DNA of 39,379 nucleotides from a virus (taxonomy: Duplodnaviria > Heunggongvirae > Uroviricota > Caudoviricetes), in IMG/VR virus record IMGVR_UViG_2778261458_000007; one strand, written 5' to 3'. Shown here one piece after another: positions 4,556-39,379 of this stretch; the stretch's first letter is position 1, and each line of letters opens with the position of its first letter. The position numbers and the translations under genes are program-made. Below the pieces are notes generated by a model that was not told the origin of the DNA, searched no databases, and worked only from the letters and a program-made list of their open reading frames with translations.

Positions 4556-4851
4556 GCCGCGTCCCTCTGCCCATCAAGCTGATCAGCCAGATCCCAGCGG
4601 GCGATAATTGCCATTGCCTCGCGCCGGTAGGCATCCATTAGTTCTTCGAACTCAGGGCTGTCTTTAGCGGCCTCCAGTACTTCCTGGCGAACGCCTTTAA
4701 CTGTTACAACGTCGAAAGTTGATGCCAGTTGATGAAGCCGGATACTCTCAATCAGTTCAACTTGTCGGTCATATAGCTGTTCTGACAGACGGTAGTCCTT
4801 GTCGAATGCCAGCATGATTTTTTGAAGATTTTTCTGCTGATTAACGTTCAT
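4552..4851 (-). CDS. Hypothetical early protein (100 aa)
   Basis: ORF starting at ATG 4851 (MNVNQQ), 2 bp after stop of preceding small gene; overlaps exonuclease start. Confidence 0.45.
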   Translation of the reverse strand: MNVNQQKNLQKIMLAFDKDYRLSEQLYDRQVELIESIRLHQLASTFDVVTVKGVRQEVLEAAKDSPEFEELMDAYRREAMAIIARWDLADQLDGQRDAA

Positions 4852-4853
4852 TA

Positions 4854-5006
4854 TCAGCCCTCCCATATCTCGTTATCGTTGGCCACATCGCGAGCTTCTT
4901 TGCTGACGAAAGCCCACTTAATGCCTTCCTGTAAGGTGCGGAACTTCCAGCTCATGAATCCGCATGCAGTAACGCAGTACCAACCGTTGATGATTTTCCA
5001 CTGCAT
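4854..5006 (-). CDS. Small hypothetical protein (50 aa), first gene of leftward early operon
   Basis: Not in ORF track (below 60 aa); ATG at 5006 with GAGGT 9 nt upstream; translation MQWKIINGWYCVTACGF...; directly downstream of leftward promoter. Confidence 0.35.
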   Translation of the reverse strand: MQWKIINGWYCVTACGFMSWKFRTLQEGIKWAFVSKEARDVANDNEIWEG

Positions 5007-5024
5007 AACTTGTTACCTCGGTCT

Positions 5025-5041
5025 GTTACCGTTGAGGTAAT
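5025..5041. promoter_or_regulatory. Operator site 1 (OL-proximal): GTTACCGTTGAGGTAAT
   Basis: 17-bp palindrome NTTACC-N5-GGTAAN overlapping -10 and +1 of leftward early promoter. Confidence 0.6.
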
Positions 5042-5068
5042 AATTATGCGTATATGGTTTGATGTCAA
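5040..5068 (-). promoter_or_regulatory. Leftward early promoter (PL-like)
   Basis: On minus strand -35 TTGACA (5068-5063), 17-bp spacer, -10 AATTAT (5045-5040); flanked by operator sites 1 and 2. Confidence 0.5.
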
Positions 5069-5086
5069 TAGATATGAGTTAAAAAA

Positions 5087-5103
5087 ATTACCCGTTAGGT
5101 AAT
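5087..5103. promoter_or_regulatory. Operator site 2 (OL-distal): ATTACCCGTTAGGTAAT
   Basis: Perfect half-sites ATTACC/GGTAAT, between repressor terminator and leftward promoter -35. Confidence 0.6.
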
Positions 5104-5114
5104 CGAATAGGCAA

Positions 5115-5137
5115 TAAAAAAGCCGCCATAAGGCGGC
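5115..5137 (-). terminator. Intrinsic terminator after repressor gene
   Basis: Hairpin GCCGCC-ATAA-GGCGGC followed on minus strand by a T-run (plus-strand A-run 5115-5121). Confidence 0.6.
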
Positions 5138-5159
5138 TTACTTACTGAAAAATATGGTT

Positions 5160-5744
5160 TTATTGTTTGTTTTTTTCGTTCTGGTTGATGACAAATTCAA
5201 TGTAACTTTCGATCTTTGCTTTCTCGGTTTCGGGTAACAATGCGTAGCGCGAGCGATCATAGTTGATGGTCGCAGGGTCGTGCGGGTGAATCAGTAATTC
5301 ATAGCCGTGACGCCCGAATGCGGATGCAACATTCTCCAGGGTGGAAATGGAAACGCTGACCTCATTGTTTAACAGGCGGCTGATTGTCACCTGGGCTACG
5401 CCGGATGCGCGGTGAAGTTTTCCCTGTGTTGAAAGGTCGCGGCTTTCGCTCATCCAGCGTTCCAGGTTGTGAGCCGCCAGCTGGCCAATGTCGCTTGGGC
5501 CGACAGGCTGAAAACCTTCCTGAGAAAGCGAGCGATCGATATCAAGCCAGTTACGGGGTTTATTGGCGGCAGCTTCAATTTTTCGTGCAACCTGGTCGCC
5601 GATAACCTTCTTGCCAAGAGCCCAGCGGTTTACCAGATTTGCCTGAGTTCCAAGTTTTTCAGCCATCCGCGTCTGAACACCATTGAATTCACGGTCGATC
5701 AAGTCGTTGAGATTTTGCCTGCGGACGTCCTGGATACTTTTCAT
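5160..5744 (-). CDS. CI-like prophage repressor (tandem HTH, no recognisable S24 peptidase domain)
   Basis: 194-aa ORF divergent from cro-like gene across an operator cluster; two HTH-like segments (QTRMAEKLGTQANLVNRW and GVAQVTISRLLNNE); no Ala-Gly/Ser-Lys cleavage motifs seen. Confidence 0.7.
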   Translation of the reverse strand: MKSIQDVRRQNLNDLIDREFNGVQTRMAEKLGTQANLVNRWALGKKVIGDQVARKIEAAANKPRNWLDIDRSLSQEGFQPVGPSDIGQLAAHNLERWMSESRDLSTQGKLHRASGVAQVTISRLLNNEVSVSISTLENVASAFGRHGYELLIHPHDPATINYDRSRYALLPETEKAKIESYIEFVINQNEKNKQ

Positions 5745-5798
5745 TTTCTGGAAAATCGCCTCATATCTGAATCAGAAGATGATTCAATTTAAAGCAAT

Positions 5799-5815
5799 AT
5801 TACCCAACAGGTAAA
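5799..5815. promoter_or_regulatory. Operator site 3 (OR cluster): ATTACCCAACAGGTAAA
   Basis: In divergent repressor/cro intergenic region. Confidence 0.6.
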
Positions 5816-5832
5816 TGCACCTCATGGGTAAC
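5816..5832. promoter_or_regulatory. Operator site 4 (OR cluster, degenerate): TGCACCTCATGGGTAAC
   Basis: Abuts site 3; right half conserved, left half degenerate; spacer TCATG identical to site 8. Confidence 0.4.
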
Positions 5833-5844
5833 TATCCTTGATTT

Positions 5845-5873
5845 TTGTTACCTTATAGGTGAATATTTATTAT
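5845..5873 (+). promoter_or_regulatory. Rightward early promoter (PR-like)
   Basis: -35 TTGTTA (5845-5850), 17-bp spacer containing operator site 5, -10 TATTAT (5868-5873); cro-like ATG at 5899. Confidence 0.5.
5847..5863. promoter_or_regulatory. Operator site 5 (OR cluster): GTTACCTTATAGGTGAA
   Basis: Lies in the spacer between -35 TTGTTA and -10 TATTAT of the rightward cro promoter. Confidence 0.55.
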
Positions 5874-5898
5874 CTGAAATAAATATCAGGCAATAGCT

Positions 5899-6129
5899 AT
5901 GAGCGATAACGGACATTTCGATTTCAAAAAGCACTGGCTTGCACTTACTCCGGATGAGCGTGAAGCCTTCGCACAGGAAGCCGGAACGACGAGTCACTAT
6001 ATCCAGACTCACTTAACAGGTAAGCGCAAAATGCCAGGTAAGGTATTGATGGATGGGCTTTTTAAAGCCTGTAAATCAAGACAATGGCTGCGCTCAAAAG
6101 CAGAACTGGCATACTTCTTCTACTCATGA
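5899..6129 (+). CDS. Cro-like DNA-binding protein
   Basis: 76-aa ORF divergent from repressor; first gene of rightward early operon; followed by intrinsic terminator. Confidence 0.55.
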   Translation: MSDNGHFDFKKHWLALTPDEREAFAQEAGTTSHYIQTHLTGKRKMPGKVLMDGLFKACKSRQWLRSKAELAYFFYS

Positions 6130-6151
6130 TATCCAGCCACAACCCTCTGTA

Positions 6152-6173
6152 GACCGCCATCCGGCGGTCTTTT
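6152..6173 (+). terminator. Intrinsic terminator after cro-like gene
   Basis: Hairpin GACCGCC-ATCC-GGCGGTC followed by TTTT. Confidence 0.65.
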
Positions 6174-6183
6174 CATATCTATT

Positions 6184-6200
6184 CGTACCTCAAAGGTAAT
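6184..6200. promoter_or_regulatory. Operator site 6: CGTACCTCAAAGGTAAT
   Basis: Immediately after cro terminator, upstream of gene at 6280. Confidence 0.5.
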
Positions 6201-6279
6201 AAAAAACCAAATATGGTTGATCTTTTTTTTGTGTCAGCACAAAATAACCGTAATCCCAATACTAATAACAGGGCTTACC

Positions 6280-6480
6280 ATGGAAATCATTACACGTATT
6301 GATGCCGCAAAGCGCGGACTTAAACGCTACTACACCGGAAAACCATGTAAGCACGGACATGACAGTGAACGCTGGGTTTACAACGGACACTGTGTTGAGT
6401 GCACCATGGAGTCAAACCGTCGCATCAGGGCAGAGATTAAGCAGATCATGATTAATTCCTCCCCACAACACTCAAGCTGA
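6280..6480 (+). CDS. Small Cys/His-rich protein (cII-equivalent position)
   Basis: Start at ATG 6280 (MEIITRIDAAKRG); C-x-H-G-H ... C-V-E-C pattern suggests zinc binding; the ORF-track start at 6217 is a TTG. Confidence 0.45.
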   Translation: MEIITRIDAAKRGLKRYYTGKPCKHGHDSERWVYNGHCVECTMESNRRIRAEIKQIMINSSPQHSS

Positions 6481-6495
6481 TAGCGGAGATTAATC

Positions 6496-7311
6496 ATGAG
6501 CAGACATGCAACAGATTGGGCCTGGGAGACAGATCCAGGTAGCTCATCATTAAAGCTCATACTGCTCTCGATGGCTGACAGAGCCGATGAATATAACCTC
6601 TGCTACCCAAGCATAGAACGCCTCGTTAAAGACACTTGCCTGAATAAAAAAACCGTGCAGGCCGGGCTTATATCGCTCATGAAAATGGGGCTTATTTCAG
6701 ATACCGGAGAGAGAAAGGGAGCGACGAAAAGAGTGCGGGTTTTCTCTCTTAATATAACAAAAAACGGGAACATTAAAGGTAACCGGGAAGGGTGTAATGA
6801 ACCCGAAAACGGTAATGTTACCGAAAACGGGAATATACCCAAAAACGGGATGTTGAATGATCCCAAAAACGGGATGTTGAATGATCCCAAAAACGGGATC
6901 CAGAACCAGTCATATAACCAGTCATTTAACCAAGAGAGGGAGAGCAGGACAAAAAACGGGGATTCTGTGCATCATGACCCCGGCGCAAACAACGCCGTGA
7001 TGAATAACTTTGTTCCTCCTGGTGGGCCAGGGCAATTAGGAAAATTTGTCATGCATGAACAATGGCAGCCATCAGATGACTTTCTTCGGAAAAGCTCATT
7101 GCAGGGGATCTACCTGGACAGTCTGCCAACGGCACAGGAACTTGCAGAGTTCAGAATTTACTGGATGGCTGAGGGTAAGGCATACCATCAGGCACAGTGG
7201 GAGCAGAAGCTGGCAAGGCGGCTGCAGATTAGCAGACAGAAGCAATCAACATTACCTGATAACAACGTTCCGCACTGGAACAGCCCTGAAGCATGGGAGG
7301 ATTTCTTGTGA
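6496..7311 (+). CDS. Replication initiation protein (lambda O-like, iterons embedded)
   Basis: 271-aa ORF with RBS GGAG; N-terminal HTH-like domain; internal AAAACGGGA iteron array coding KNG repeats; followed by coupled P-like gene. Confidence 0.7.
   Translation: MSRHATDWAWETDPGSSSLKLILLSMADRADEYNLCYPSIERLVKDTCLNKKTVQAGLISLMKMGLISDTGERKGATKRVRVFSLNITKNGNIKGNREGCNEPENGNVTENGNIPKNGMLNDPKNGMLNDPKNGIQNQSYNQSFNQERESRTKNGDSVHHDPGANNAVMNNFVPPGGPGQLGKFVMHEQWQPSDDFLRKSSLQGIYLDSLPTAQELAEFRIYWMAEGKAYHQAQWEQKLARRLQISRQKQSTLPDNNVPHWNSPEAWEDFL
6759..6961. repeat. Iteron array (AAAACGG[G/T]A, about 7 copies) within O-like gene, putative replication origin
   Basis: Cores at 6761, 6806, 6824, 6842, 6866, 6890, 6953; three copies are exact 24-bp tandem units CCCAAAAACGGGATGTTGAATGAT (6838-6861, 6862-6885, partial 6886-6903). 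Confidence 0.6.
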
Positions 7312-8129: not shown

Positions 8130-8146
8130 GTTACCTGTTAGGTAAT
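8130..8146. promoter_or_regulatory. Operator site 7: GTTACCTGTTAGGTAAT
   Basis: After P-gene terminator, upstream of -35 TTGATT. Confidence 0.55.
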
Positions 8147-8191
8147 AAAATATTCTAAAATCTATTGATTTCGTGTCTTATGTGGTTTTTA

Positions 8192-8208
8192 ATTACCTCA
8201 TGGGTAAA
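8192..8208. promoter_or_regulatory. Operator site 8: ATTACCTCATGGGTAAA
   Basis: Overlaps -10 TTTAAT and ends 2 bp before start codon at 8211. Confidence 0.55.
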
Positions 8209-8210
8209 TC

Positions 8211-8555
8211 ATGAGAAAACAGATACAGGCTCTTGGTCGACTCAAAACAGGCCAGATGAACAAAACAGAATCTGCGTATTGCCAGCACCTTGAGCAGCGT
8301 AAACGTGCAGGGGAAATCGCCTGGTATCGATTCGAGGGTATCAAGCTGCGGTTAGCTGACAACACGTTCTATACGCCAGATTTCGCTGTGATGCTCGCCA
8401 CCGGAGAGATGGAACTGCACGAAGTGAAAGGTTTCTGGACCGACGACGCCAGGGTGAAAACCAAAGTCGCCGCAGATCAGTATCCGTTCCGAATCATCGG
8501 GGTAACGGTTAAGCCAAAGAAAGCAGGTGGTGGCTGGAACATCGAAGAGTTCTGA
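8211..8555 (+). CDS. DUF1064-like protein (putative nuclease)
   Basis: 114-aa ORF; motif pattern resembles DUF1064 phage proteins; start sits immediately after operator site 8. Confidence 0.55.
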   Translation: MRKQIQALGRLKTGQMNKTESAYCQHLEQRKRAGEIAWYRFEGIKLRLADNTFYTPDFAVMLATGEMELHEVKGFWTDDARVKTKVAADQYPFRIIGVTVKPKKAGGGWNIEEF

Positions 8556-10555: not shown

Positions 10556-10768
10556 ATGCCAAAAATACGCTACGACCTTGAAGATATGAGAGATAACTCA
10601 GCAAATTTTCCGAAAGAGGTTAAATTTCTCATGCATAAGTATGGTTGCGCCAGGAGGGATATAGTTATCGACAGTCAGCACCCTTGCGGCGAGGATGTAA
10701 TTTTCATTCGCGGTAAATGGGAAGGGTATCTTGACGAGAGTTTTTACGATGAATTTGATGGACTTTGA
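10556..10768 (+). CDS. Hypothetical protein (70 aa)
   Basis: ATG 10556 with GAAGG upstream; followed by strong intrinsic terminator. Confidence 0.4.
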   Translation: MPKIRYDLEDMRDNSANFPKEVKFLMHKYGCARRDIVIDSQHPCGEDVIFIRGKWEGYLDESFYDEFDGL

Positions 10769-10773
10769 ATACT

Positions 10774-10799
10774 GCCGCCAACTATGGCGGCTTTATTTT
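10774..10799 (+). terminator. Intrinsic terminator separating early genes from terminase operon
   Basis: Hairpin GCCGCC-AACTAT-GGCGGC followed by TTTATTTT. Confidence 0.65.
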
Positions 10800-10809
10800 G
10801 CATGGTACT

Positions 10810-10826
10810 ATTACCACAACGGTAAC
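10810..10826. promoter_or_regulatory. Operator site 9 (terminase promoter): ATTACCACAACGGTAAC
   Basis: Between strong terminator and terS start; left half overlaps extended -10 TGGTACTAT. Confidence 0.55.
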
Positions 10827-10845
10827 TATTACCACGGTGGTTATG

Positions 10846-11439
10846 ATGCCTGCTGAACCTAAAACCTATAAACGCAAATCAACGCAATTTAAGCCGCTCA
10901 CAGCAATGCAGGAGGCTTATTGCCAGTCATACATCAAAACGCCTGAAAACCAGACTCAGGCAGCGATTAACGCAGGATTCTCCCCAAATACAGCGGCAGT
11001 TAAAGCCAGTGTCATGATGCGCGATGAACGCATTCAAAAACGGATTGCCGAGTTGATGGAGGAGCGCAACAAACGAATGCGCGTCAGTGCTGATTACGTT
11101 CTCATGCGCCTGGTGGAGATCGACCAGATGGACGTGATCGATATCCTCAACGACGATGGGAGCCTTAAACCAATCCGTGAGTGGCCGAAAATCTGGCGCA
11201 CTACGCTTAGTGGCTTTGATCTGTCATCGACCATCATGAACATGAACGAGGATTCGATAGAGACAATCCTCAAAAAAATTAAATGGCCTGACAAGGTGAA
11301 GAACCTTGAGCTGATTGGTAAGCATGTTGATGTCAACGCGTTCAAAGAACGTCTGGATGTTAATGTGAATGTGACAATTGCTGATCGCATAGCAGCAGCC
11401 AGGAAGCGACTCAAAGAACGTCAGGATGGTAATCAGTGA
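10846..11439 (+). CDS. Terminase small subunit
   Basis: Conserved region LTAMQEAYCQSYIKTPENQTQAAINAGFSPNTAAV typical of Terminase_2-type small subunits; immediately upstream of terL; start chosen at second ATG for RBS spacing. Confidence 0.7.
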   Translation: MPAEPKTYKRKSTQFKPLTAMQEAYCQSYIKTPENQTQAAINAGFSPNTAAVKASVMMRDERIQKRIAELMEERNKRMRVSADYVLMRLVEIDQMDVIDILNDDGSLKPIREWPKIWRTTLSGFDLSSTIMNMNEDSIETILKKIKWPDKVKNLELIGKHVDVNAFKERLDVNVNVTIADRIAAARKRLKERQDGNQ

Positions 11440-13577: not shown

Positions 13578-13654
13578 TGGCGTGGCATGCAGGATTCGAA
13601 CCTGCGACCAACCGCTTAGAAGGCGGTTGCTCTGTCCAACTGAGCTAATGCCAC
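13578..13654 (-). tRNA. tRNA-Arg (anticodon UCU)
   Basis: 77-nt cloverleaf on minus strand: acceptor GTGGCAT/ATGCCAC, D-arm GCTC...GAGC, anticodon stem ACCGC/GCGGT with loop CTTCTAA, T-arm GCAGG-TTCGAAT-CCTGC, encoded CCA; own terminator downstream. Confidence 0.85.
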
Positions 13655-13976: not shown

Positions 13977-13993
13977 CTTACCTGAAAGGTAAT
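13977..13993. promoter_or_regulatory. Operator site 10 (head operon / tRNA divergent region): CTTACCTGAAAGGTAAT
   Basis: In noncoding region upstream of head genes and of minus-strand tRNA. Confidence 0.55.
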
Positions 13994-19789: not shown

Positions 19790-22260
19790 TGGCTATCAGT
19801 TGGATCCAGCCCAGCTTTGCCGGTGGTGAGATTGGACCGTCGTTGTACGGTCGTATCGACATGGCGAAGTACCAGGTGGCATTGCGCAAGTGCGATAACT
19901 TTATCGTGCGGCAGTATGGCGGCGTTGAGAATCGACCTGGTACGCGTTTTGTCGGTGCCGCCAAATACCCAAATCGGAAATGCCGCCTGATCCCGTTCCA
20001 GTTCTCGACGGTTCAGACCTATGCTCTGGAGTTCGGGCACCAGTACATGCGCGTTATCAAAGATGGTGCGTTGGTGCTGAACAGCAGCAATGTTATTTAT
20101 GAAATTGCCACGCCATATACTGAAGCCGATCTGTTCCGAATTAAATTTACGCAAAGCGCCGACGTGCTTACGCTGGTTCACCCGGCATACCCGCCGAAAG
20201 AGTTGCGCCGCTATGCGCATGACAACTGGCAACTGGTTGATGTGGTAACGAAGAACGGGCCATTTGAAGATATCAATATTGACGAGTCAGTGACGGTTTA
20301 TGCCAGCGCCAGCACCGGGACAATTACGTTAACGGCAAGCGCCTCTATTTTTGGCGCGGAGCAGGTAGGCAAATTGTTCTATCTGGAACAGCCTGCAGTG
20401 GATTCAGTGCCGGTATGGGAAACCAGTAAGAGTACGTCGATTGGCGATATTCGCCGTGCAGACAGTAACTACTATCGCGCCGTTACAGCAGGCAAAACAG
20501 GCACTTTGCGCCCTTCGCATACAGAAGGCACATCATGGGATGGCTGGGGCGGATCCGGTGATGATGATACTGGCATTGAGTGGGAGTATCTGCACAGTGG
20601 TTTTGGCATTGCCCGTATCACTGCTGTAAACGGCACTACTGCAACTGCCGAGGTGATTTCCTATATCCCTTCGCAGGTCGTTGGCGAGGATAATGCCAGC
20701 TATAAATGGGCTAAATATGCCTGGAACAGTGTTAATGGTTATCCTGGCACTGTTGTTTATTATCAACAACGTCTTTACTTCGCCGCATCGACTGCGTTCC
20801 CTCAGACTATCTGGGCCAGCCGTACCGGGGATTATAAGGATTTTGGCAAAAGCAATCCTACGCAGGATGACGACAGAATTATCTACACCTATGCCGGGCG
20901 TCAGGTTAATGAGATCCGCCACCTGATTGATGTCGGTTCGCTGGTGGCACTGACTTCCGGAGGTGAGTACGTCATCACCGGCGACCAGAACAAAGTGTTA
21001 ACCCCATCATCATTTGCATTCAGCTCTCAGGGATCAAATGGCTCAAGCAACGTCCCACCAATTGCTGTGGCGAATATTGCTCTGTTTGTCCAGGAGAAAG
21101 GCAGCGTTGTCCGTGATCTGGCCTACTCATTCGATGTTGACGGCTATCAGGGGAACGACCTGACCATCCTTGCCAATCATCTTTTTCAGAAGCACAGCAT
21201 TGTTGACTGGTGCTTCTCGATAGTCCCTTACTCCAGCGCCTTCTGCATCCGTGATGACGGTAAATTACTGGTGATGACCTATTTGCGTGATCAACAGGTT
21301 TTTGCATGGGCACCACAGTCCAGTACCGGAAAATATGAAAGCACATGCAGTATCAGCGAAGGCAATGAAGATGCGGTGTATTTCGTCGTTAACCGAACCG
21401 TTAACGGGCAAACAGTGAGATACATCGAGAGACTGTCTAGCCGTTTATTTACCAGCGATGAAGATGCTTTCTTTGTTGATTCTGGCCTTAGCTATGATGG
21501 AAGAAATACGTCTGACAGAACGATGACCATCACTGGTGGTTCTGGCGAATGGGATTATCGCGCGGAATATACAATCAGTGTTTCTGGTGGTGCGTACTTC
21601 ACCAGTAGTGATGTCGGCGCGCAACTACAGTTCCCTTATGTCGGAACTGATCCTGATACTGGCGATGAAGTGTCAAAAGAATTACGTTGCGACATTATTT
21701 CTGTAACCAGCAATACCGCTGTAGTGGTTCGTGCTAACAGGAACGTCCCGCCATCCCTCAGGAATGTGGCCACCACGAACTGGCAGATGGCGCGCCGGAC
21801 ATTTGGAGGCCTGTCTCATCTTGAAGGCCAGACCGTAAACATTCTCTCTGATGCGAACGTGGAGCCACAGAAAGTGGTTTCCGGAGGTGCCGTCACGCTG
21901 GAATCTCCGGGGGCTGTAGTGCACATCGGCCTGCCAATAACTGCTGAATTCGAAACACTGGATATCAACATTAACGGACAGGAAACGCTGCTGGACAAAA
22001 AACAGGTGATCCCGTCCGTTACTCTGGTTGTGAATGCCAGCCGCGGCATCTGGGCGACTACGCCCGGCGGTAAATGGTACGAATATCCACAGCGTGAATT
22101 CGAGTTCTACGATGATCCTGTTGATGACGCTACCGGAAAAGTAGAAGTGAAACTGGACAGTAACTGGGGCAAAAACGGACGTGTAAGAATCCGTCAGCTT
22201 GACCCGTTGCCGCTGTCTGTTCTTGCCGTTATTCCTCGCCTTACTGTTGGGGGATTCTGA
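19789..22260 (+). CDS. Tail tubular protein B-like (nozzle)
   Basis: 823-aa ORF following gp11-like gene in T7-like order. Confidence 0.5.
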   Translation: MAISWIQPSFAGGEIGPSLYGRIDMAKYQVALRKCDNFIVRQYGGVENRPGTRFVGAAKYPNRKCRLIPFQFSTVQTYALEFGHQYMRVIKDGALVLNSSNVIYEIATPYTEADLFRIKFTQSADVLTLVHPAYPPKELRRYAHDNWQLVDVVTKNGPFEDINIDESVTVYASASTGTITLTASASIFGAEQVGKLFYLEQPAVDSVPVWETSKSTSIGDIRRADSNYYRAVTAGKTGTLRPSHTEGTSWDGWGGSGDDDTGIEWEYLHSGFGIARITAVNGTTATAEVISYIPSQVVGEDNASYKWAKYAWNSVNGYPGTVVYYQQRLYFAASTAFPQTIWASRTGDYKDFGKSNPTQDDDRIIYTYAGRQVNEIRHLIDVGSLVALTSGGEYVITGDQNKVLTPSSFAFSSQGSNGSSNVPPIAVANIALFVQEKGSVVRDLAYSFDVDGYQGNDLTILANHLFQKHSIVDWCFSIVPYSSAFCIRDDGKLLVMTYLRDQQVFAWAPQSSTGKYESTCSISEGNEDAVYFVVNRTVNGQTVRYIERLSSRLFTSDEDAFFVDSGLSYDGRNTSDRTMTITGGSGEWDYRAEYTISVSGGAYFTSSDVGAQLQFPYVGTDPDTGDEVSKELRCDIISVTSNTAVVVRANRNVPPSLRNVATTNWQMARRTFGGLSHLEGQTVNILSDANVEPQKVVSGGAVTLESPGAVVHIGLPITAEFETLDININGQETLLDKKQVIPSVTLVVNASRGIWATTPGGKWYEYPQREFEFYDDPVDDATGKVEVKLDSNWGKNGRVRIRQLDPLPLSVLAVIPRLTVGGF

Positions 22261-30608: not shown

Positions 30609-31112
30609 TTATACTATTGAGTTTAATGATATCTTGTCCTTAATATCATTAAGTTTGCCATATATCTTTTTTGCATAAAAATCAGCATCCTCAATAAACC
30701 TCGACTTCTCATTATCAGGCATATTTTTGAAGGTATGTGCACATGTATATTGAGAGTAGTATTTGTGAAATTCTTGATACGCATTATTGAGTTCTTGTAA
30801 GTCTTTTTTATACTCAGGAAGGTATATGTTTATTAGCATTTCCATCGTTTGCAACGGATTCGCTCTTGATACGTCAAATTTACTATCAGAGTGGTATCTG
30901 GCATTTTTTACGAAATTGAGAATGGTAATTGTGCTTGAATCTATGACTTTTTTAGTAAGTATACAATTTATAAATAATTGCTCGCATTTATCCCTTAATA
31001 TTTTTTGTCGCTCTAATCTTATGCTGTTTTTGTATCCTTGTCTTGCATTTATATAAGTGGAAACTATAGCAATAACTGCACCTATCAATGCGCCTAAGAT
31101 AGTATTATCCAT
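30609..31112 (-). CDS. Membrane-anchored protein of unknown function
   Basis: Start ATG 31112 with AGGTGG upstream; one N-terminal TM segment (ILGALIGAVIAIVSTYI); AT-rich coding sequence. Confidence 0.5.
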   Translation of the reverse strand: MDNTILGALIGAVIAIVSTYINARQGYKNSIRLERQKILRDKCEQLFINCILTKKVIDSSTITILNFVKNARYHSDSKFDVSRANPLQTMEMLINIYLPEYKKDLQELNNAYQEFHKYYSQYTCAHTFKNMPDNEKSRFIEDADFYAKKIYGKLNDIKDKISLNSIV

Positions 31113-31137
31113 ATAAGCCACCTAAACTGCGTAAAAT

Positions 31138-32001
31138 TTATTTCCTGCCACTTCTGTAGTATATGTTGCGACCATTTTTGGTCACATTAACAACATGACC
31201 CTTTGTTTCTACTTTGTTATTTGTTGCCTTATATACTTCAAAGTCAAACCATGATATATGACTTATTTCGTCTATAGATACCATAATTTCTAGACCTTGA
31301 ACTTTCTTTTTGCTTATCCCTTTTATCGCAGCACTGCGCTTAATTTGGATTTCACCTGGGTAAGCGTTTGTAAATGTAACAGATAAATTTTCTTTGTTTC
31401 TGTACCCTGACATTAAAGGAACAAAAGATATGTGTTGGTGTGGCCCTTGATTTTCCGTTGGCTCACCAGAACCATTTATTATTCCAACGTATACTTTATT
31501 TGATGATAAAGTAATTAACATTGGTTTCTTAGGATCTGATTCGATTGCATCAAGCAATAGCAAATCTAAAGAACCCTGGGAGTACGTTTTTCGCAATACC
31601 CTAGCTTTCATTGCCTCTGATATTTTGTCATAAATATCACGTTTATAAAAACAACCTAAAAGAAGATCTTTTAGCCAAACAAAAGATACATAACACAAAG
31701 AGAAGCAAATTGATGTGACTGACAGAAGAAGTAGCCACATGTAAATTCTATCTGTTTCTGGTTTTGACGTTACATTAAAAGTTTCCACCATATCGTGAAC
31801 TAGGTGAAAATCAGGATATTTATATTTTATAAATGAGGCAATTATTACCGAAGCAACAAGGCAATATGTACCTAATGCAGCTACTTTCATATAAAGAAGC
31901 TGGCCTTCATGTCGGTATAAACGGAAATAATGATACTGGTTAGCGGTTATCATAATATAACCACTAACCAGAATGGGGATAATTAGAAGAGCTAACAACA
32001 C
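31138..32001 (-). CDS. Membrane protein of unknown function (three N-terminal TM segments plus soluble domain)
   Basis: 287-aa ORF; GTG start overlapping stop of upstream 69-aa gene, RBS AAGGA; hydrophobic stretches at roughly residues 1-20, 40-60, 85-105; AT-rich. Confidence 0.5.
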   Translation of the reverse strand: MLLALLIIPILVSGYIMITANQYHYFRLYRHEGQLLYMKVAALGTYCLVASVIIASFIKYKYPDFHLVHDMVETFNVTSKPETDRIYMWLLLLSVTSICFSLCYVSFVWLKDLLLGCFYKRDIYDKISEAMKARVLRKTYSQGSLDLLLLDAIESDPKKPMLITLSSNKVYVGIINGSGEPTENQGPHQHISFVPLMSGYRNKENLSVTFTNAYPGEIQIKRSAAIKGISKKKVQGLEIMVSIDEISHISWFDFEVYKATNNKVETKGHVVNVTKNGRNIYYRSGRK

Positions 32002-32210
32002 TATTTCCTTACAGTGGCAAGATCCTGTTTAACGATTGCAGCAGCGAGACGACGCATCTCCTTAACCTCAGGAAGCTCAGAAATTTGCTGTGATGAGATA
32101 TACACTCCACCACGCTTGTTAACCTGCGCTGACGCCGGAACTTCTGCATTTTTTGCCTGAGGGCTGGGTGCATTATCCCTCGTTTTTGTACGAGCGAACC
32201 AAAATCCCAT
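32001..32210 (-). CDS. Small basic protein (69 aa), first gene of accessory operon
   Basis: Strong RBS AGGAGGAGAT; directly downstream of operator-overlapped promoter. Confidence 0.45.
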   Translation of the reverse strand: MGFWFARTKTRDNAPSPQAKNAEVPASAQVNKRGGVYISSQQISELPEVKEMRRLAAAIVKQDLATVRK

Positions 32211-32235: not shown

Positions 32236-32252
32236 TTTACCTTTAAGGTAAT
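32236..32252. promoter_or_regulatory. Operator site 11 (accessory operon promoter): TTTACCTTTAAGGTAAT
   Basis: Overlaps -10 and +1 of leftward promoter TTGCAG-17-TACTAT. Confidence 0.55.
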
Positions 32253-32323: not shown

Positions 32324-33034
32324 TCAGAAGAACCCTGCCTTGTCGTTGATGTACTCCGCGTGTGTCTGGATATCACGCAGGCATTTGCTCACACCGACGA
32401 TGTAGCAGAACATGGTGGTCAGCTCCGCCGCTGCGCCCGATACGTCGTGCCCGTCGTCCTGTAACTGGTTCAGCAGATTCATCAGCAGTGAGTTCTCTGT
32501 CAGGCCGAGAACACCAGACGGCGAATGAATCAGGCTGCGGTAGCCGGGCTTCAGTGGGGCGCTGTAGGTTTTGTTCTCTACCTTCATTGCCTGCATCACT
32601 GCTGACGCCGTGGCGTTGGCTACCTGGTCGGCAACCATCTTTATGCGTTCTTCCTGCGGGAGCGAGTTTTTAATGTAGCGTCCGGTGCGGCGGATCTGAG
32701 GAAGAACCTCACCTGTAACCCATTTACGAAAGCGGTAGGGTATAGTGCCTGGTGTCACTGCGTCGCGGCAGCGTAGGATCAGTGTGTAGAGGCCTGACTC
32801 GGAGATGATGTTGATCTCTTTTACTCGGCTGTCAAAAATTGCACGATGTTCATGCCCTATGTTGAACATAGACCTTTCATCATCATCCAGTTTTTCAAGT
32901 GCTTGGGTGACGTTTTGGATACGCAGCGCACTACAAACGTCTTGGGCTACAAACCATGGTTGGCCATCGATAATGATGGAACGGATAGGGTTAACAGATT
33001 CAAATTTGAAGATGGCAGTTTGAGCATTAGCCAT
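32324..33034 (-). CDS. Bro-N domain antirepressor-like protein
   Basis: N-terminal region FVAQDVCSALRIQN...ISESGLYTLILRCRD...FRKWVTGEVLPQIRRTG matches Bro-N-type antirepressors; start ATG 33034 with GGAG upstream. Confidence 0.65.
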   Translation of the reverse strand: MANAQTAIFKFESVNPIRSIIIDGQPWFVAQDVCSALRIQNVTQALEKLDDDERSMFNIGHEHRAIFDSRVKEINIISESGLYTLILRCRDAVTPGTIPYRFRKWVTGEVLPQIRRTGRYIKNSLPQEERIKMVADQVANATASAVMQAMKVENKTYSAPLKPGYRSLIHSPSGVLGLTENSLLMNLLNQLQDDGHDVSGAAAELTTMFCYIVGVSKCLRDIQTHAEYINDKAGFF

Positions 33035-33190
33035 GGTGGTTATCTCCACTTAGTGATTTTAATCACCACCGCAACGCCAATTACTGGTGGTGAACTGGAC
33101 AAGGTTGGCGTACCGGCCTAAGTGGTACCGGCGTCCTTTCGGACCCCTGCCCAGCCCACCATAATTCGGATATAGCTGTGCTTAACGCAT

Positions 33191-33213
33191 AAAAAAACCA
33201 CGTCTGGCGTGGT
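33191..33213 (-). terminator. Intrinsic terminator inside leader upstream of Bro-N gene
   Basis: Hairpin ACCACG-CCAGA-CGTGGT followed on minus strand by T-run. Confidence 0.55.
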
Positions 33214-33302
33214 ATGCGCCACTTAGTAACCCGGGACGCCAATCCCGGCACTGGATTTTGCCAGTGCCTGATTACTATGGCACAAGAGGAGTGCGATGTA
33301 AA

Positions 33303-33319
33303 TTTACCTCAAAGGTAAA
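33303..33319. promoter_or_regulatory. Operator site 12 (antirepressor leader promoter): TTTACCTCAAAGGTAAA
   Basis: Overlaps -10 of leftward promoter TTGCAA-17-TATATT. Confidence 0.55.
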
Positions 33320-33349: not shown

Positions 33350-33607
33350 TTATCTGGTTTGTTTTCGTAATTGTTCGGCACAATAGTCGAGATGTGTTTG
33401 CAGCTCCTGCATAGACATCTGTGAGCTGGTGACGTAGTTAATCAGTGCAGTCAGTTCGGCAAGTGGGCCATCGACATTAAATCCATCCTTATCGAGATCC
33501 CGGAGTAATTTCATCAAGTGCGATCCCTCCACCAGTGATCTGACGCCTCCCGGCGTGTGAATCCTTTCGGTAAATCCGTCTTCCAGTGGATAGTGATACT
33601 GCTGCAT
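33350..33607 (-). CDS. Small antirepressor-like protein (homolog of Bro-N protein C-terminal domain), LexA-box associated
   Basis: About 45 percent identity by eye to residues about 150-215 of the Bro-N protein (shared LAELT, QTH..Y); start at second ATG 33607 with GGAG RBS; LexA box 23 bp upstream. Confidence 0.5.
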   Translation of the reverse strand: MQQYHYPLEDGFTERIHTPGGVRSLVEGSHLMKLLRDLDKDGFNVDGPLAELTALINYVTSSQMSMQELQTHLDYCAEQLRKQTR

Positions 33608-33629
33608 CTTAATCTTCTCCATGCAATAA

Positions 33630-33645
33630 CTGTATATTTATACAG
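33630..33645. promoter_or_regulatory. LexA (SOS) box CTGTATATTTATACAG
   Basis: CTGT-N8-ACAG with AT-rich centre; extended match AACTGTATATTTATACAGTA to consensus TACTGTATATATATACAGTA; 23 bp upstream of small antirepressor-like gene. Confidence 0.75.
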
Positions 33646-33683
33646 TAGCAAATAATTTGTTTGCTATCCAGCACGTTTTGCAA

Positions 33684-33700
33684 ATTACCTGAAAGGTAAT
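33684..33700. promoter_or_regulatory. Operator site 13: ATTACCTGAAAGGTAAT (perfect palindrome)
   Basis: In divergent region between LexA-boxed small gene and tailspike gene; preceded by TTGCAA. Confidence 0.6.
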
Positions 33701-33803
33701 ATCTATTCATATTCACAGTCTTTCTATCCATATGTGGTTTTTCAGGTAATAGAATAACCAGATATGCGGCGCAACGGGTGCTGCGACTATCTGGAGATTT
33801 AAC

Positions 33804-38308: not shown

Positions 38309-38848
38309 TTAGTTAAACCAGCTGTCCGATTTGTTCTCTTCTGCTTTGCCCACGCTTTTCATCAGATCTCGACCGCCCTCAGTCATATTCCTGTTTGCGT
38401 CAGCTTCAGATTGCACCACATCGGTTTGCGCAGCTTTGTGCTTCAGTTCCTGATCGATAGATTCGTTTTCTCGCTTAACGCGGGCTTCTTCTTTCGCCAG
38501 CGCCAGTTTTTGTTTCTGAATCTCTAAGCTGCGTAGCTCATCTTCATAACTTTGATCGCGTTTTTTGTCCGCAGAGGCTTCGGCGTCCAGTTTATCCTGA
38601 CGAGCTTTCTTATTTGCCGCTGCCGTTGCCGCTCTTTTGTTAGCGGCGGCCTGGGCGTTTGCGCGACGTTGCTTCTCTTGCTGGATTTCCCTGTTGCGCT
38701 CCGCGACCCATTCGTCATGCTGCCTTTGCTCTTCATTTTTACCTTGCTGTTCCGCTTCTGCGACAGCAGAGAGTTGATCCTGCAATGATGAGGCGATAGC
38801 CGGATAGCTTAAGGAGGCTAAGATGGCGCAAAGAAAAACTTTCTTCAT
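38309..38848 (-). CDS. Secreted coiled-coil protein (host-like)
   Basis: Signal peptide MKKVFLCAILASLSYPAIA then Gln/Lys/Glu-rich sequence; lies beyond phage lysis cassette and bidirectional terminator. Confidence 0.45.
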   Translation of the reverse strand: MKKVFLCAILASLSYPAIASSLQDQLSAVAEAEQQGKNEEQRQHDEWVAERNREIQQEKQRRANAQAAANKRAATAAANKKARQDKLDAEASADKKRDQSYEDELRSLEIQKQKLALAKEEARVKRENESIDQELKHKAAQTDVVQSEADANRNMTEGGRDLMKSVGKAEENKSDSWFN

Positions 38849-38863
38849 GACTCCTCCTGATCA

Positions 38864-39379
38864 TTAGCTCTTTTCAGGACATTTGGTATTTGGCTGAATA
38901 CGCGTTTCGTTATACGTCGTGGTAATAACAACGGCTAAACCTGTCGTAAACTGGCACTCTTTACCCACCTGGGTGGAGGTATACACTTTGGTGCCTTCCT
39001 TATACGTTAGAGAAACACCTTCCACTAAGGTTTTATCATTCACCATAGAACCCGCTGCCGCGCCAACAGCTCCGCCGCCAACTGCACCTGCCGTCGTTCC
39101 GGAATTGCTGCCAGACCCGACGTTGTGGCCAATAACACCGCCAGCGACTGCACCAATAAGCGCGCCGAAGGCTTGTGCGTTTCGTTTATTTTGGGAGTTG
39201 TCTACGGCAACTTTTGCGGGAAGAATGGAAATAATATTAACGGTTTTAGTTTCTTGTTTGGTATTCAGTTGATCGGTTTGATAAACATCGGCGGCATGAT
39301 CATCAGCATTTGACTGGCATCCTGCCAGAGTGAATGACGCTAACATTGCCACAGGCAGAAGACATTTTTTAAATTTCAT
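38864..39379 (-). CDS. Glycine-zipper outer-membrane lipoprotein (YcfJ-like)
   Basis: Lipobox LAGC; Gly-zipper GALIGAVAGGVIGHNVGSGS...GAVGGGAVGAAAG; start at window edge. Confidence 0.55.
   Translation of the reverse strand: MKFKKCLLPVAMLASFTLAGCQSNADDHAADVYQTDQLNTKQETKTVNIISILPAKVAVDNSQNKRNAQAFGALIGAVAGGVIGHNVGSGSNSGTTAGAVGGGAVGAAAGSMVNDKTLVEGVSLTYKEGTKVYTSTQVGKECQFTTGLAVVITTTYNETRIQPNTKCPEKS

What the first reader, a model, noticed from the sequence alone, without database searches (positions are those of the whole stretch)
5025..5898. Immunity switch: tripartite OR and bipartite OL with operators overlapping core promoter elements
Between the repressor (minus) and cro-like (plus) genes, three operators lie at 5799-5815, 5816-5832 (abutting, degenerate left half) and 5847-5863. 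The last sits in the spacer of the rightward promoter (-35 TTGTTA, -10 TATTAT). On the left, operators at 5025-5041 and 5087-5103 flank a leftward promoter (TTGACA-17-AATTAT). The graded degeneracy of site 4 suggests an OR3-like weak site and possible autoregulation. The repressor has two HTH-like segments and no recognisable S24 self-cleavage domain.
Basis: partly seen in the sequence, partly recalled or inferred. Interest (0 to 1): 0.6.

Follow-up and report, generated by a model that had tools for sequence, protein, structure and literature searches.

The report
Known phage repressor's operator sites
The five palindromes are real binding sites for the repressor of a phiV10/epsilon15-type E. 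coli prophage, but they belong to an already described switch that uses about 14 such sites across the phage genome and is induced by a LexA-controlled antirepressor, so the finding is correct but ordinary.

Summary
All five sites exist at the stated coordinates, built on the palindrome TTACC-N5-GGTAA. The window holds 10 exact copies against 0.04 expected by chance. The leftward promoter and the repressor's domain content are also as described.

The window is a Uetakevirus prophage, 98-99% identical to phiV10, PAS61 and ZX5. Its repressor aligns over its full length to SPC32H Rep (PDB 5D50/5D4Z) and has no S24 domain. A small gene at 33350-33607 is about 87% identical to SPC32H Ant and has a LexA box just upstream. 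The epsilon15 GenBank record already annotates repressor-binding sites with the same motif at the same syntenic positions.

The lambda-style reading is too narrow:
- OR and OL are 5 of about 14 sites. These also guard the replication, recombination, terminase, portal and antirepressor transcription units.
- The second "HTH" is Rep's dimerisation domain in the SPC32H structure.
- The weak middle OR site occurs only in the phiV10/Tyrion clade; it is perfect in the other relatives.
- Operator pairs 62 bp apart bracket two paralogous promoters, which fits the tetrameric Rep.

Verdict: a real feature, already known in kind, of low interest.

The parts
5160..5744 (-). rep, the prophage repressor (194 aa). 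It has an N-terminal HTH DNA-binding domain, a middle HTH_3-fold dimerisation domain and a C-terminal tetramerisation/Ant-binding domain. There is no S24 domain.
   Evidence: ORF. Pfam. Full-length match to PDB 5D50_A SPC32H Repressor, E=4e-42, and to 5D4Z (Rep 92-198) over aa 89-190. 100% identical to the phiV10 and ZX5 repressors. Domain names are from PMC9986798.
5120..5139 (-). Intrinsic terminator ending the rep transcript before OL/PL.
   Evidence: Terminator scan: 8-bp stem, 6 GC pairs, T-run. Annotated as a putative terminator in phiV10.
5088..5102 (.). OL distal operator (exact palindrome), 19 nt upstream of the PL -35.
   Evidence: Conserved with 62-63 bp spacing to the proximal site in PAS61, Tyrion, SPC32H and BUCT711.
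5040..5068 (-). PL, the leftward early promoter: TTGACA (5068-5063), 17-nt spacer, AATTAT (5045-5040).
   Evidence: Promoter scan, 10 of 12 matches. CTATTGAC and the -10 are conserved in relatives.
5026..5040 (.). OL proximal operator (exact palindrome). It shares its first base with the last base of the PL -10 and covers the start region.
5800..5814 (.). OR site a (exact), nearest to rep.
   Evidence: Half-sites are invariant in 4 relatives.
5817..5831 (.). OR site b (GCACC...GGTAA, 2 mismatches), 17 bp from site a.
   Evidence: Aligns to perfect sites in epsilon15 and BUCT711. The 17-bp offset is conserved in all relatives.
5848..5862 (.). OR site c (TTACC...GGTGA, 1 mismatch), inside the PR core.
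   Evidence: The homologous site has 1-2 mismatches in every relative examined.
5838..5873 (+). PR region with two overlapping candidate promoters. One is TTGATT (5838-5843)-17-GAATAT (5861-5866). The other is TTGTTA (5845-5850)-17-TATTAT (5868-5873).
   Evidence: The second candidate is found by the scan. TTGATTTTT is invariant across window, Tyrion, epsilon15 and BUCT711. The same TTGAT -35 is used in the paralogous module at 8165. The transcription start site is not determined.
5899..6129 (+). cro-like gene (76 aa), the first gene of the rightward transcript.
   Evidence: ORF. phrog_35 'transcriptional repressor', E=8.7e-13. No Pfam hit.
6151..6170 (+). Intrinsic terminator after the cro-like gene.
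   Evidence: Annotated in phiV10. Conserved in relatives.
6185..6199 (.). Single operator (GTACC...GGTAA, 1 mismatch), 18 nt upstream of the next promoter's -35.
   Evidence: The xxACC-N5-GGTAA form is conserved in 5 phages.
6218..6246 (+). Conserved promoter-like element TTGATC-17-CAAAAT ahead of the gp40-like and replication genes.
   Evidence: GGTTGATCTTTTTT and AAAAT are invariant in 5 phages. Read from the alignment; it falls below the scan threshold.
8131..8145 (.). Distal operator (exact) of the second promoter cassette.
8165..8193 (+). Promoter TTGATT-17-TTTAAT for the DUF1064 / Holliday-junction-resolvase operon. It is paralogous to PL.
   Evidence: Alignment of six cassettes with invariant CTATTGA and ATTACC. 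Not called by the scan, because the -10 lacks A at position 2.
8193..8207 (.). Proximal operator (exact), 62 bp from the distal one, overlapping the -10 and the start region. It ends 3 nt before the ATG at 8211.
10811..10825 (.). Operator (exact) after the terminator at 10774-10791 and just upstream of the small terminase gene.
   Evidence: The homologous epsilon15 site at 12-27 is annotated 'protein_bind repressor'.
10829..10843 (.). Adjacent operator (1 mismatch), 18 bp from the previous one, abutting the likely terS start (ATG at 10843/10846).
13978..13992 (.). Operator (exact) in the intergenic region upstream of the gp3-like and portal genes.
   Evidence: The homologous epsilon15 site at 2931-2947 is annotated as a repressor site.
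32237..32251 (.). Operator (exact) between the large antirepressor gene and three minus-strand genes of unknown function.
33304..33318 (.). Operator (exact) abutting the promoter-like sites that lead into the isrK-like RNA, C4 RNA and Bro-N antirepressor.
33685..33699 (.). Operator (exact) between the divergent small ant gene and the tailspike gene.
   Evidence: The homologous epsilon15 site at 19895-19911 is annotated as a repressor site.
33628..33647 (.). LexA box AACTGTATATTTATACAGTA, upstream of ant.
   Evidence: The only match in the window to the LexA consensus with up to 3 mismatches; 0 expected. epsilon15 has TACTGTATAAACATACAGTA at the same place.
33350..33607 (-). Small antirepressor Ant. 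The likely start is the ATG at 33607; the longest ORF starts at 33622.
   Evidence: Match to PDB 5D50_E 'Anti-repressor protein', E=1.8e-46, about 87% identity over 83 aa.

Best explanation
The sites at 5025-5103 and 5799-5863 are operators of Rep, the prophage repressor of a phiV10/epsilon15-type podovirus (genus Uetakevirus). They are one part of a genome-wide Rep regulon.

Shown here:
- Rep is a full-length homologue of SPC32H Rep, the protein of PDB 5D50/5D4Z.
- Its operator is the 15-bp palindrome TTACC-N5-GGTAA.
- About 14 copies lie in intergenic DNA at the boundaries of nearly every lytic transcription unit: PL, PR, the replication genes, the DUF1064 operon, terminase, portal and both antirepressor genes.
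- At PL and at the paralogous promoter at 8165-8193, two operators 62 bp apart bracket the promoter. One lies 19 nt upstream of the -35 and the other overlaps the -10 and the start region.
- At OR, two sites 17 bp apart are followed 31 bp later by a weaker site inside PR.

Inferred by homology with SPC32H:
- Rep works as a tetramer, a dimer of dimers. Its four N-terminal domains form two DNA-reading pairs, so one tetramer can hold two operators. These could be an adjacent pair, or a 62-bp pair with the promoter looped between them. RNA polymerase would then be excluded from PL, PR and the other promoters.
- Induction does not use repressor cleavage. DNA damage removes LexA from the box at 33628-33647, the small Ant is made, and Ant binds the Rep C-terminal domain and takes the tetramer off the DNA.

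Speculative:
- The Rep operator next to ant adds positive feedback.
- OR site occupancy autoregulates rep.
For: Identity of the element:
- 98-99% DNA identity to phiV10, PAS61 and other Uetakeviruses. Present in 562 of 5426 E. coli genomes.

The motif:
- 10 exact copies against 0.04 expected.
- All copies are intergenic once gene starts are corrected.

Homology:
- Rep against 5D50_A, E=4e-42 over aa 1-190.
- Ant against 5D50_E, E=1.8e-46.
- No S24 domain.
- One LexA box in the window, immediately upstream of ant.

Prior annotation:
- The epsilon15 record AY150271.2 marks 'protein_bind: repressor' at the terS, portal, ant/tailspike, OL (three sites) and resolvase-upstream positions.
- Those sites read ATTACC-N5-GGTAAT.

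Conservation:
- The same motif lies at syntenic positions in Tyrion, epsilon15, SPC32H and BUCT711, and in six enterobacterial prophages. Spacings are fixed at 17, 30-31 and 62-63 bp.

Link between the Rep N-terminal domain and the motif:
- The putative recognition helix NLVNRW is invariant in all Reps whose genomes carry the motif.
- Five distant N-terminal-domain homologues with a different helix (TQVSRL or SIVNQH) have no copy near the gene.

Function:
- Overexpressing the identical ZX5 repressor abolished free phage and cut endolysin and holin transcripts by more than 99.9%. The ZX5 lysogen is inducible by mitomycin C (PMC9782041).
- Tetrameric DNA binding, trans pairing of DNA-binding domains, and Ant breaking the tetramer are reported for SPC32H, as summarised in PMC9638917 and PMC9986798.
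Against: - No binding, footprint or transcription-start data exist for this Rep on these sites. The assignment is by homology, position and statistics.
- I could not read the primary SPC32H papers or the epsilon15 genome paper. I therefore cannot say which operators were tested experimentally.
- No sigma-70-like promoter was detected at the terS and portal sites, so their role there is open. They could be roadblocks, loop anchors, or operators of activator-dependent promoters.
- A 62-bp loop held by one tetramer is sterically demanding and untested.
- OR has three sites, which does not divide evenly into tetramer-sized pairs.
- The cro-like protein may share the same sites.
- Rep's Ant-binding C-terminal domain is only 43% identical to that of epsilon15, while Ant is 80-87% identical. 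Transfer of the Ant mechanism is therefore likely but not certain.
Confidence: 0.82

Rival explanations
1. A self-contained lambda-style switch. Dimeric repressor binds cooperatively to a graded tripartite OR, with a weak OR3-like site that gives negative autoregulation of PRM, plus a bipartite OL. The other copies of the palindrome are incidental.
For: - Divergent rep and cro-like genes with three intergenic sites, and two sites at PL.
- Antirepressor overexpression lowered rep mRNA by 75% in ZX5. This is compatible with positive autoregulation.
Against: - The other copies are not incidental: 10 exact copies against 0.04 expected, all intergenic and syntenic across the genus.
- The weak middle site is perfect in epsilon15, SPC32H and BUCT711, so graded affinity of that site is not a conserved design.
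- Rep has no S24 domain.
- The homologous SPC32H Rep binds DNA as a tetramer, and dimers bind weakly (PMC9638917).
- No convincing PRM could be placed.
Confidence: 0.1
2. The palindromes are bound mainly by a different phage protein, such as the cro-like product or a late-gene regulator. Rep would recognise something else.
For: - No direct binding data for this phage.
- The cro-like protein is a predicted DNA-binding repressor (phrog_35).
- Some sites (terS, portal) lack detectable sigma-70 promoters, as would suit an activator.
Against: - The epsilon15 authors annotated these sites as repressor-binding.
- The sites bracket PL, PR and rep itself.
- Presence of the motif tracks the Rep N-terminal NLVNRW helix, and the motif is absent next to N-terminal-domain homologues with another helix.
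- No other repeated palindrome was noticed around OL or OR in the sequence and alignments.
Confidence: 0.06
3. The sites are chance matches, or a structural repeat such as terminator hairpins, with no regulatory role.
For: Matches with up to 2 mismatches are frequent by chance, about 11 expected. Several sites lie just after terminators.
Against: - Exact copies are about 250-fold over expectation.
- The arms are only 5 nt long and are not GC-rich stems followed by T-runs.
- Half-sites are invariant while the spacers vary between relatives.
Confidence: 0.01

Closest known systems
Rep/Ant lysis-lysogeny switch of Salmonella phage SPC32H (Kim & Ryu 2013, J Virol 87:11775; Kim et al. 2016, PNAS 113:E2480; PDB 5D50, 5D4Z), and the repressor sites annotated in epsilon15 (GenBank AY150271.2)
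   Same: - Same genus and the same gene order.
- Rep is homologous over its full length (E=4e-42), and Ant is about 87% identical.
- There is a LexA box at ant and no S24 domain.
- The operator half-sites are identical (TTACC/GGTAA), at the same syntenic positions and with the same 17-, 30/31- and 62-bp spacings.
   Different: - Rep is only about 42% identical overall: N-terminal domain 53%, middle domain 36%, C-terminal domain 43% against epsilon15 Rep.
- The middle OR site is degenerate here.
- OL has two sites here, against three in epsilon15 and SPC32H.
- This prophage also carries a second, Bro-N-type antirepressor with an isrK-like/C4 RNA leader. SPC32H and PAS61 lack it.
- Nothing has been tested biochemically for the phiV10-type Rep.
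Phage lambda CI/Cro with OR1-3 and OL1-3
   Same: - Divergent repressor and cro-like genes.
- A three-site intergenic operator overlapping PR.
- Operators at PL.
- Long-range pairing of operators is plausible.
   Different: - No S24 autocleavage domain; induction is by an antirepressor.
- The working unit is a tetramer with trans-paired DNA-binding domains.
- Operators are also scattered at late and accessory promoters.
- The weakest site is not conserved in position.
- Operator spacing is 17 bp and 31 bp, against about 23-24 bp in lambda (the lambda figure is from my own knowledge).
Dispersed-operator prophage repressors: P1 C1, mycobacteriophage L5 gp71 'stoperators', N15/PY54 CB
   Same: A single repressor has many operators spread over the prophage genome, including positions ahead of late genes. 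An antirepressor module with C4 RNA is present, as in P1 and N15.
   Different: - The operators here are symmetric palindromes, so they carry no orientation. P1 and L5 sites are asymmetric (PMC1934351 abstract, for L1/L5-type phages).
- There is no sequence relationship to C1 or gp71. Pfam and PHROG hits are to HTH_3/XRE-type regulators only.
Gifsy/Fels-2-type and 186 Tum-type LexA-controlled antirepressor induction (Lemire et al. 2011, PMC3121763)
   Same: The repressor is not cleavable, and a small LexA-regulated antirepressor links the SOS response to induction.
   Different: The antirepressor and repressor families are unrelated. I recall the SPC32H Ant being described as structurally distinct from the Sipho- and Myoviridae antirepressors, but I could not read the paper to confirm this.

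Membership tests
SPC32H/epsilon15-type Rep-Ant switch (Uetakevirus) | Repressor homologous over its full length to SPC32H Rep (N-terminal DNA-binding domain, middle dimerisation domain, C-terminal tetramerisation/Ant-binding domain) | tested here: met
   phmmer against the PDB: 5D50_A, E=4e-42, aa 1-190 aligned to 2-197; 5D4Z_A over aa 89-190. Domain scheme from PMC9986798.
SPC32H/epsilon15-type Rep-Ant switch (Uetakevirus) | No RecA-dependent autocleavage (Peptidase_S24) domain | tested here: met
   No S24 hit at E<=0.1 in Pfam. Whether cleavage actually occurs is not testable here.
SPC32H/epsilon15-type Rep-Ant switch (Uetakevirus) | Cognate small antirepressor Ant encoded divergently from the tailspike gene | tested here: met
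   ORF 33350-33622(-) against 5D50_E, E=1.8e-46. Same position as the SPC32H ant and epsilon15 gp19.
SPC32H/epsilon15-type Rep-Ant switch (Uetakevirus) | LexA box at the ant promoter | tested here: met
   AACTGTATATTTATACAGTA at 33628-33647. It is the only such match in the window, with 0 expected.
SPC32H/epsilon15-type Rep-Ant switch (Uetakevirus) | Palindromic ATTACC-N5-GGTAAT operators at OL, OR, terS, portal, resolvase-type gene and ant/tailspike positions | tested here: met
   epsilon15 annotation and sequences.
SPC32H/epsilon15-type Rep-Ant switch (Uetakevirus) | Rep binds DNA as a tetramer and is dismantled by tetrameric Ant | not testable with these tools
   Known for SPC32H only (PMC9638917). 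Needs SEC-MALS or AUC, EMSA and pull-downs with the phiV10-type proteins.
Lambda-type CI/Cro switch | Divergent repressor and cro genes with a tripartite operator overlapping PR and PRM | tested here: inconclusive
   Three sites and a PR overlap are present. No PRM could be assigned.
Lambda-type CI/Cro switch | Repressor with a LexA-like S24 C-terminal domain, inactivated by RecA-stimulated self-cleavage | tested here: not met
   No S24 domain. The C-terminal half is homologous to the SPC32H Rep dimerisation and tetramerisation domains.
Lambda-type CI/Cro switch | A conserved weak OR3-type site that gives negative autoregulation | tested here: not met
   The degenerate site b is perfect in epsilon15, SPC32H and BUCT711. 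Affinities were not measured.
P1 C1 / L5 gp71 dispersed (st)operator regulons | Many operators dispersed over the genome | tested here: met
   13-14 sites at 8 loci. This shows that it works like these systems, not that it is a member.
P1 C1 / L5 gp71 dispersed (st)operator regulons | Asymmetric, orientation-dependent operator, and a repressor homologous to C1 or gp71 | tested here: not met
   The sites are perfect palindromes. Rep hits only XRE/HTH_3-type families.

The most novel reading that the evidence does not exclude
The conserved 62-bp operator pairs that bracket PL and the 8165 promoter may each be clamped by a single Rep tetramer through its two trans-formed DNA-binding pairs. That would wrap the whole promoter in a six-turn micro-loop. 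In addition, every Uetakevirus examined, from E. coli, Salmonella, Klebsiella and Enterobacter, keeps the same half-sites and the same recognition helix although the Reps are only 42-45% identical. The genus may therefore form a single cross-immune, cross-inducible group, with any specificity lying in Rep-Ant pairing rather than in DNA recognition.
Probability: 0.3. Interest if true: 0.4.

Novelty: already known. Interest (0 to 1): 0.15.

Why it matters
This prophage type sits in about one in ten complete E. coli genomes (562 of 5426), including O157 and other STEC hosts. A correct operator map is therefore useful for annotation, for predicting induction by DNA-damaging drugs, and for engineering phiV10-based reporter phages.

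Conceptually it adds little. Non-cleavable Rep, LexA-controlled Ant and the palindromic operators are already described for the sister phages SPC32H and epsilon15. The modest new points are a phiV10-clade site map, the paralogous two-operator promoter cassette with fixed 62-bp spacing, and the invariance of the half-site across the genus.

Tried and rejected
- **Primary papers.** I tried to read Kropinski 2007 (epsilon15 genome), Kim & Ryu 2013 and Kim et al. 2016. None is held. What they say is taken from secondary citations, from the GenBank features and from memory, which is marked as such.
- **Covariation test.** I scanned 185,579 genomes with the Rep alignment. The tool's search patterns included the recognition helix itself, so close hits were biased towards NLVNRW. 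The five distant hits with a different helix carry no motif. That is weak support only, because no alternative palindrome was found for them.
- **PRM.** I looked for a rep promoter on the minus strand of 5745-5870. Only poor candidates appeared, for example TTTACC-17-TTAAAT, which lacks the -11 A. None was called by the scan, so none is assigned.
- **Late-gene sites.** Sigma-70 scans at the terS and portal sites found nothing.
- **Possible second motif.** I considered the 12-mer TATGTGGTTTTT as a second regulator's motif. It has two exact copies, but 8 matches with up to 2 mismatches against 3.9 expected, and 4 of 100 shuffles do as well. It is not significant and is explained in part by the paralogy of the promoter cassettes.
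- **Genes at 30609-32210.** Pfam and PADLOC gave no significant hits.
- **Structure prediction.** I did not run a prediction or the large protein searches. A solved homologue aligned over the full length makes them unnecessary for the question asked.
- **Data handling.** Loci fetched in parallel (L003-L005) did not reach the Python sandbox, so BUCT711 and Tyrion were re-fetched one at a time (L007, L008) and SPC32H (L006) was used in place of epsilon15. L008 also failed to arrive. Tyrion site positions therefore come from the DNA search and from the alignments.
Full report
**What the window is.** The region 4800-6500 is 98-99% identical to Escherichia phages vB_EcoP_PAS61 and phiV10, the O157 typing phages 9 and 10, phiv142-3, ZX5 and TL-2011b. 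It occurs in 562 of 5426 complete E. coli genomes, almost always once per genome and on the chromosome. These phages belong to the genus Uetakevirus, the epsilon15-like temperate podoviruses. The window is thus a phiV10-type prophage.

**Checking the observation.** The five sites read as follows:
- aTTACCCAACAGGTAAa (5799-5815)
- tGCACCTCATGGGTAAc (5816-5832)
- gTTACCTTATAGGTGAa (5847-5863)
- gTTACCGTTGAGGTAAt (5025-5041)
- aTTACCCGTTAGGTAAt (5087-5103)

The core palindrome TTACC-N5-GGTAA occurs exactly 10 times in 39,379 bases. Dinucleotide-preserving shuffles give 0.04. Matches with up to two mismatches are common by chance, about 11 expected. The degenerate site at 5817-5831 is therefore credible only because of its position. 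It lies exactly 17 bp from an exact site, and the homologous site occupies the same offset in every relative examined. That site is a perfect palindrome in epsilon15, SPC32H and BUCT711.

The scan finds the leftward TTGACA-17-AATTAT (10 of 12 matches) and the rightward TTGTTA-17-TATTAT (9 of 12). The repressor (5160-5744, minus strand, 194 aa) has a Pfam HTH_3 match at aa 106-147 and a sub-threshold YdaS-type HTH at aa 21-61. It has no Peptidase_S24 match.

The same palindrome is found well outside the finding. Exact copies lie at 8131, 8193, 10811, 13978, 32237, 33304 and 33685. One-mismatch copies lie at 6185 and 10829. Every copy is intergenic once gene starts are read sensibly. For example, the two sites at 10811-10843 lie inside the longest terS ORF (TTG at 10765) but directly before the in-frame ATG ATG at 10843/10846. 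That matches the length of epsilon15 terS.

**Identity of the system.** The repressor aligns over its whole length to chain A of PDB 5D50, 'Repressor' of Salmonella phage SPC32H (E=4e-42). Its C-terminal half aligns to 5D4Z, which is Rep 92-198. A 90-aa minus-strand ORF at 33350-33622 matches chain E of 5D50, 'Anti-repressor protein' (E=1.8e-46). There are 11 differences in 83 aligned residues. The alignment and a GGAG motif suggest that the real start is the ATG at 33607.

Immediately upstream lies AACTGTATATTTATACAGTA (33628-33647). It is the only near-consensus LexA box in the window. epsilon15 has TACTGTATAAACATACAGTA at the same place.

Secondary sources describe the SPC32H system as follows:
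- Rep has an N-terminal DNA-binding domain, a middle dimerisation domain and a C-terminal domain. The C-terminal domain both tetramerises Rep and binds Ant (PMC9986798).
- Rep binds DNA as a tetramer, and dimers bind weakly.
- The two DNA-binding domains that read one palindrome come from different dimers.

From memory of the abstract of Kim & Ryu 2013, which I could not open, ant is repressed by LexA and Rep is not cleaved in the SOS response.

**Prior annotation of the operators.** The epsilon15 GenBank record AY150271.2 carries 'protein_bind, bound moiety repressor' features at these positions:
- before terS (12-27)
- before gp3/portal (2931-2947)
- between gp19 (the Ant homologue) and the tailspike gene (19895-19911)
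- three at OL (32479-32632)
- before the resolvase gene (35906-35922)

Those sequences read ATTACC-N5-GGTAAT. The record does not mark the rep/gp39 intergenic region. That region contains ATTACCATAAAGGTAAAGTTACCATAACGGTAAT followed by TTCACCAGAAAGGTAAT, the same three-site OR as here.

**Conservation.** Exact-site counts are 8 in PAS61, 9 in Tyrion, 10 in SPC32H, 10-11 in epsilon15 and 9 in BUCT711. Spacings are fixed across the relatives tabulated or aligned: OR a-b is 17 bp, OR b-c is 30-31 bp, the OL pair is 62-63 bp apart, and a second pair ahead of the DUF1064- or RuvC-type gene is 62 bp apart. Six enterobacterial prophages found in a genome scan carry the motif on both sides of rep.

Between the window and Tyrion, whose Rep is 78% identical, the half-sites are identical while the 5-bp spacers differ.

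Rep itself has diverged. Against epsilon15 Rep, identity is 53% in the N-terminal domain, 36% in the middle domain and 43% in the C-terminal domain. The segment NLVNRW, the likely recognition helix, is nevertheless invariant. Five distant N-terminal-domain homologues from Paraburkholderia, Hydrogenovibrio and Thiomicrospira have a different helix and no copy of the motif nearby. This is weak evidence, because the scan pattern included the helix. It is consistent with the N-terminal domain reading TTACC.

**Promoter anatomy.**
- *PL.* Reading the minus strand: operator 5102-5088, then 19 nt, then TTGACA, a 17-nt spacer and AATTAT. The last T of the -10 is the first T of operator 5040-5026.
- *The 8131-8207 region.* It has the same layout on the plus strand: operator, 19 nt, TTGATT (8165-8170), a 17-nt spacer, and TTTAAT (8188-8193) overlapping operator 8193-8207.
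- *Paralogy.* An alignment of both cassettes from the window, SPC32H and BUCT711 shows invariant CTATTGA and ATTACC. These are paralogous two-operator promoter cassettes.
- *After the cro-like gene.* There is a terminator (6151-6170), then a single xxACC-N5-GGTAA site (6185-6199), then 18 nt, then a conserved TTGATC-17-CAAAAT (6218-6246). All of these are conserved in five phages.
- *OR.* The block TTGATTTTT (5838-5846) is invariant in four divergent relatives. This suggests PR = TTGATT-17-GAATAT. In epsilon15 the equivalent is TTGATT-16-AATAAT. With either choice, site c lies within the PR core.
- *PRM.* I could not place it.
- *Late-gene sites.* No sigma-70-like promoter was found at the terS or portal sites.

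**Mechanism proposed.**
- *Shown.* The homology, the motif, its distribution, its geometry and the LexA box.
- *Inferred by homology.* Rep tetramers occupy operator pairs and exclude RNA polymerase from PL, PR and the other promoters. The pairs are either adjacent (17-18 bp) or 62 bp apart with the promoter between them. DNA damage relieves LexA repression of ant, and Ant then strips Rep from the DNA.
- *Functional support from ZX5, which has an identical Rep.* Overexpressing the repressor eliminated free phage and lowered endolysin and holin mRNA by more than 99.9%. Mitomycin C raised the titre from 10^7 to 10^9. Overexpressing the Bro-N antirepressor lowered lysogeny and reduced rep mRNA by 75% (PMC9782041). 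The last result is compatible with positive autoregulation, or with repression of rep by the cro-like protein.
- *Speculative.* Single-tetramer bridging of the 62-bp pairs, positive feedback through the operator next to ant, and any OR3-like logic.

**Comparison with known systems.** The system passes every testable defining feature of the SPC32H/epsilon15 Rep-Ant switch. It fails the defining lambda feature, S24 autocleavage. It resembles P1 C1 and L5 gp71 only in having dispersed operators. Its sites are palindromic, and Rep is unrelated to those repressors.

**Novelty and score.** The phage, the repressor, the antirepressor, the structure of the homologous complex and the operator motif, annotated in epsilon15 at the same positions, are all already on record. 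The ZX5 paper did not define operators or notice the small LexA-controlled Ant. An explicit phiV10-clade map may therefore be unpublished, but it follows from simple homology transfer. I rate the finding as already known, with interest 0.15. The residual open points are the 62-bp bracketing geometry and the genus-wide invariance of the half-site.

Noticed in passing
window 33083-33267 (-) and 32324-33049 (-): A second, larger antirepressor is present. It has a Bro-N domain plus a C-terminal domain homologous to the small Ant (phrog_450, E=6.5e-36). Its likely start is the ATG at 33034. It is preceded by an isrK-like RNA (Rfam RF01394, 67.7 bits) and a C4 antisense RNA (RF01695, 66 bits), which is a P1/N15 immI-like anti-immunity module. 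A Rep operator (33304-33318) abuts its promoter-like sites. PAS61 and SPC32H lack this module. ZX5 ORF4, a Bro-N-domain antirepressor tested by overexpression, appears to be of this type; I did not compare the sequences.
   Followed up: partly
window 33350-33607 versus rep 5160-5744: The small Ant is about 87% identical to SPC32H Ant and 80% identical to epsilon15 gp19. Yet Rep, including its Ant-binding C-terminal domain, is only about 42-43% identical. The antirepressor is far more conserved than its supposed target. This suggests cross-induction across the genus, or module exchange.
   Followed up: no
window 10765-10846: The longest terS ORF (TTG at 10765, as annotated in PAS61) runs through a terminator (10774-10791) and two Rep operators. 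The real start is probably the ATG at 10843 or 10846, which gives a protein the size of epsilon15 terS.
   Followed up: partly
window 13578-13654 (-): A tRNA-Arg (anticodon TCT) gene lies between the terminase and portal modules. SPC32H has one at the equivalent position.
   Followed up: yes
window 30609-32210 (-): Three minus-strand ORFs (69, 287 and 170 aa) lie downstream of the operator at 32237. They have no significant Pfam or PADLOC match. They form an accessory cassette of unknown function, absent from PAS61.
   Followed up: partly
L002 238-252; L006 26960-26974; L007 12620-12634: Relatives carry a conserved one-mismatch operator (ATTACCTTAAAGGTATA) just upstream of the integrase gene. 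The corresponding position falls just off the left end of this window, which begins at the int start codon.
   Followed up: no
window 8179-8190 and 33731-33742: The 12-mer TATGTGGTTTTT occurs exactly twice, each time 2-3 nt before a TTACC or GGTAA element. It is not significant as a degenerate motif (8 matches against 3.9 expected).
   Followed up: yes
window 38309-39379: The right end of the window appears to be host DNA beyond the prophage lysis genes. It includes a lipoprotein-like ORF at 38864-39379 on the minus strand, so the window spans the right prophage junction.
   Followed up: no
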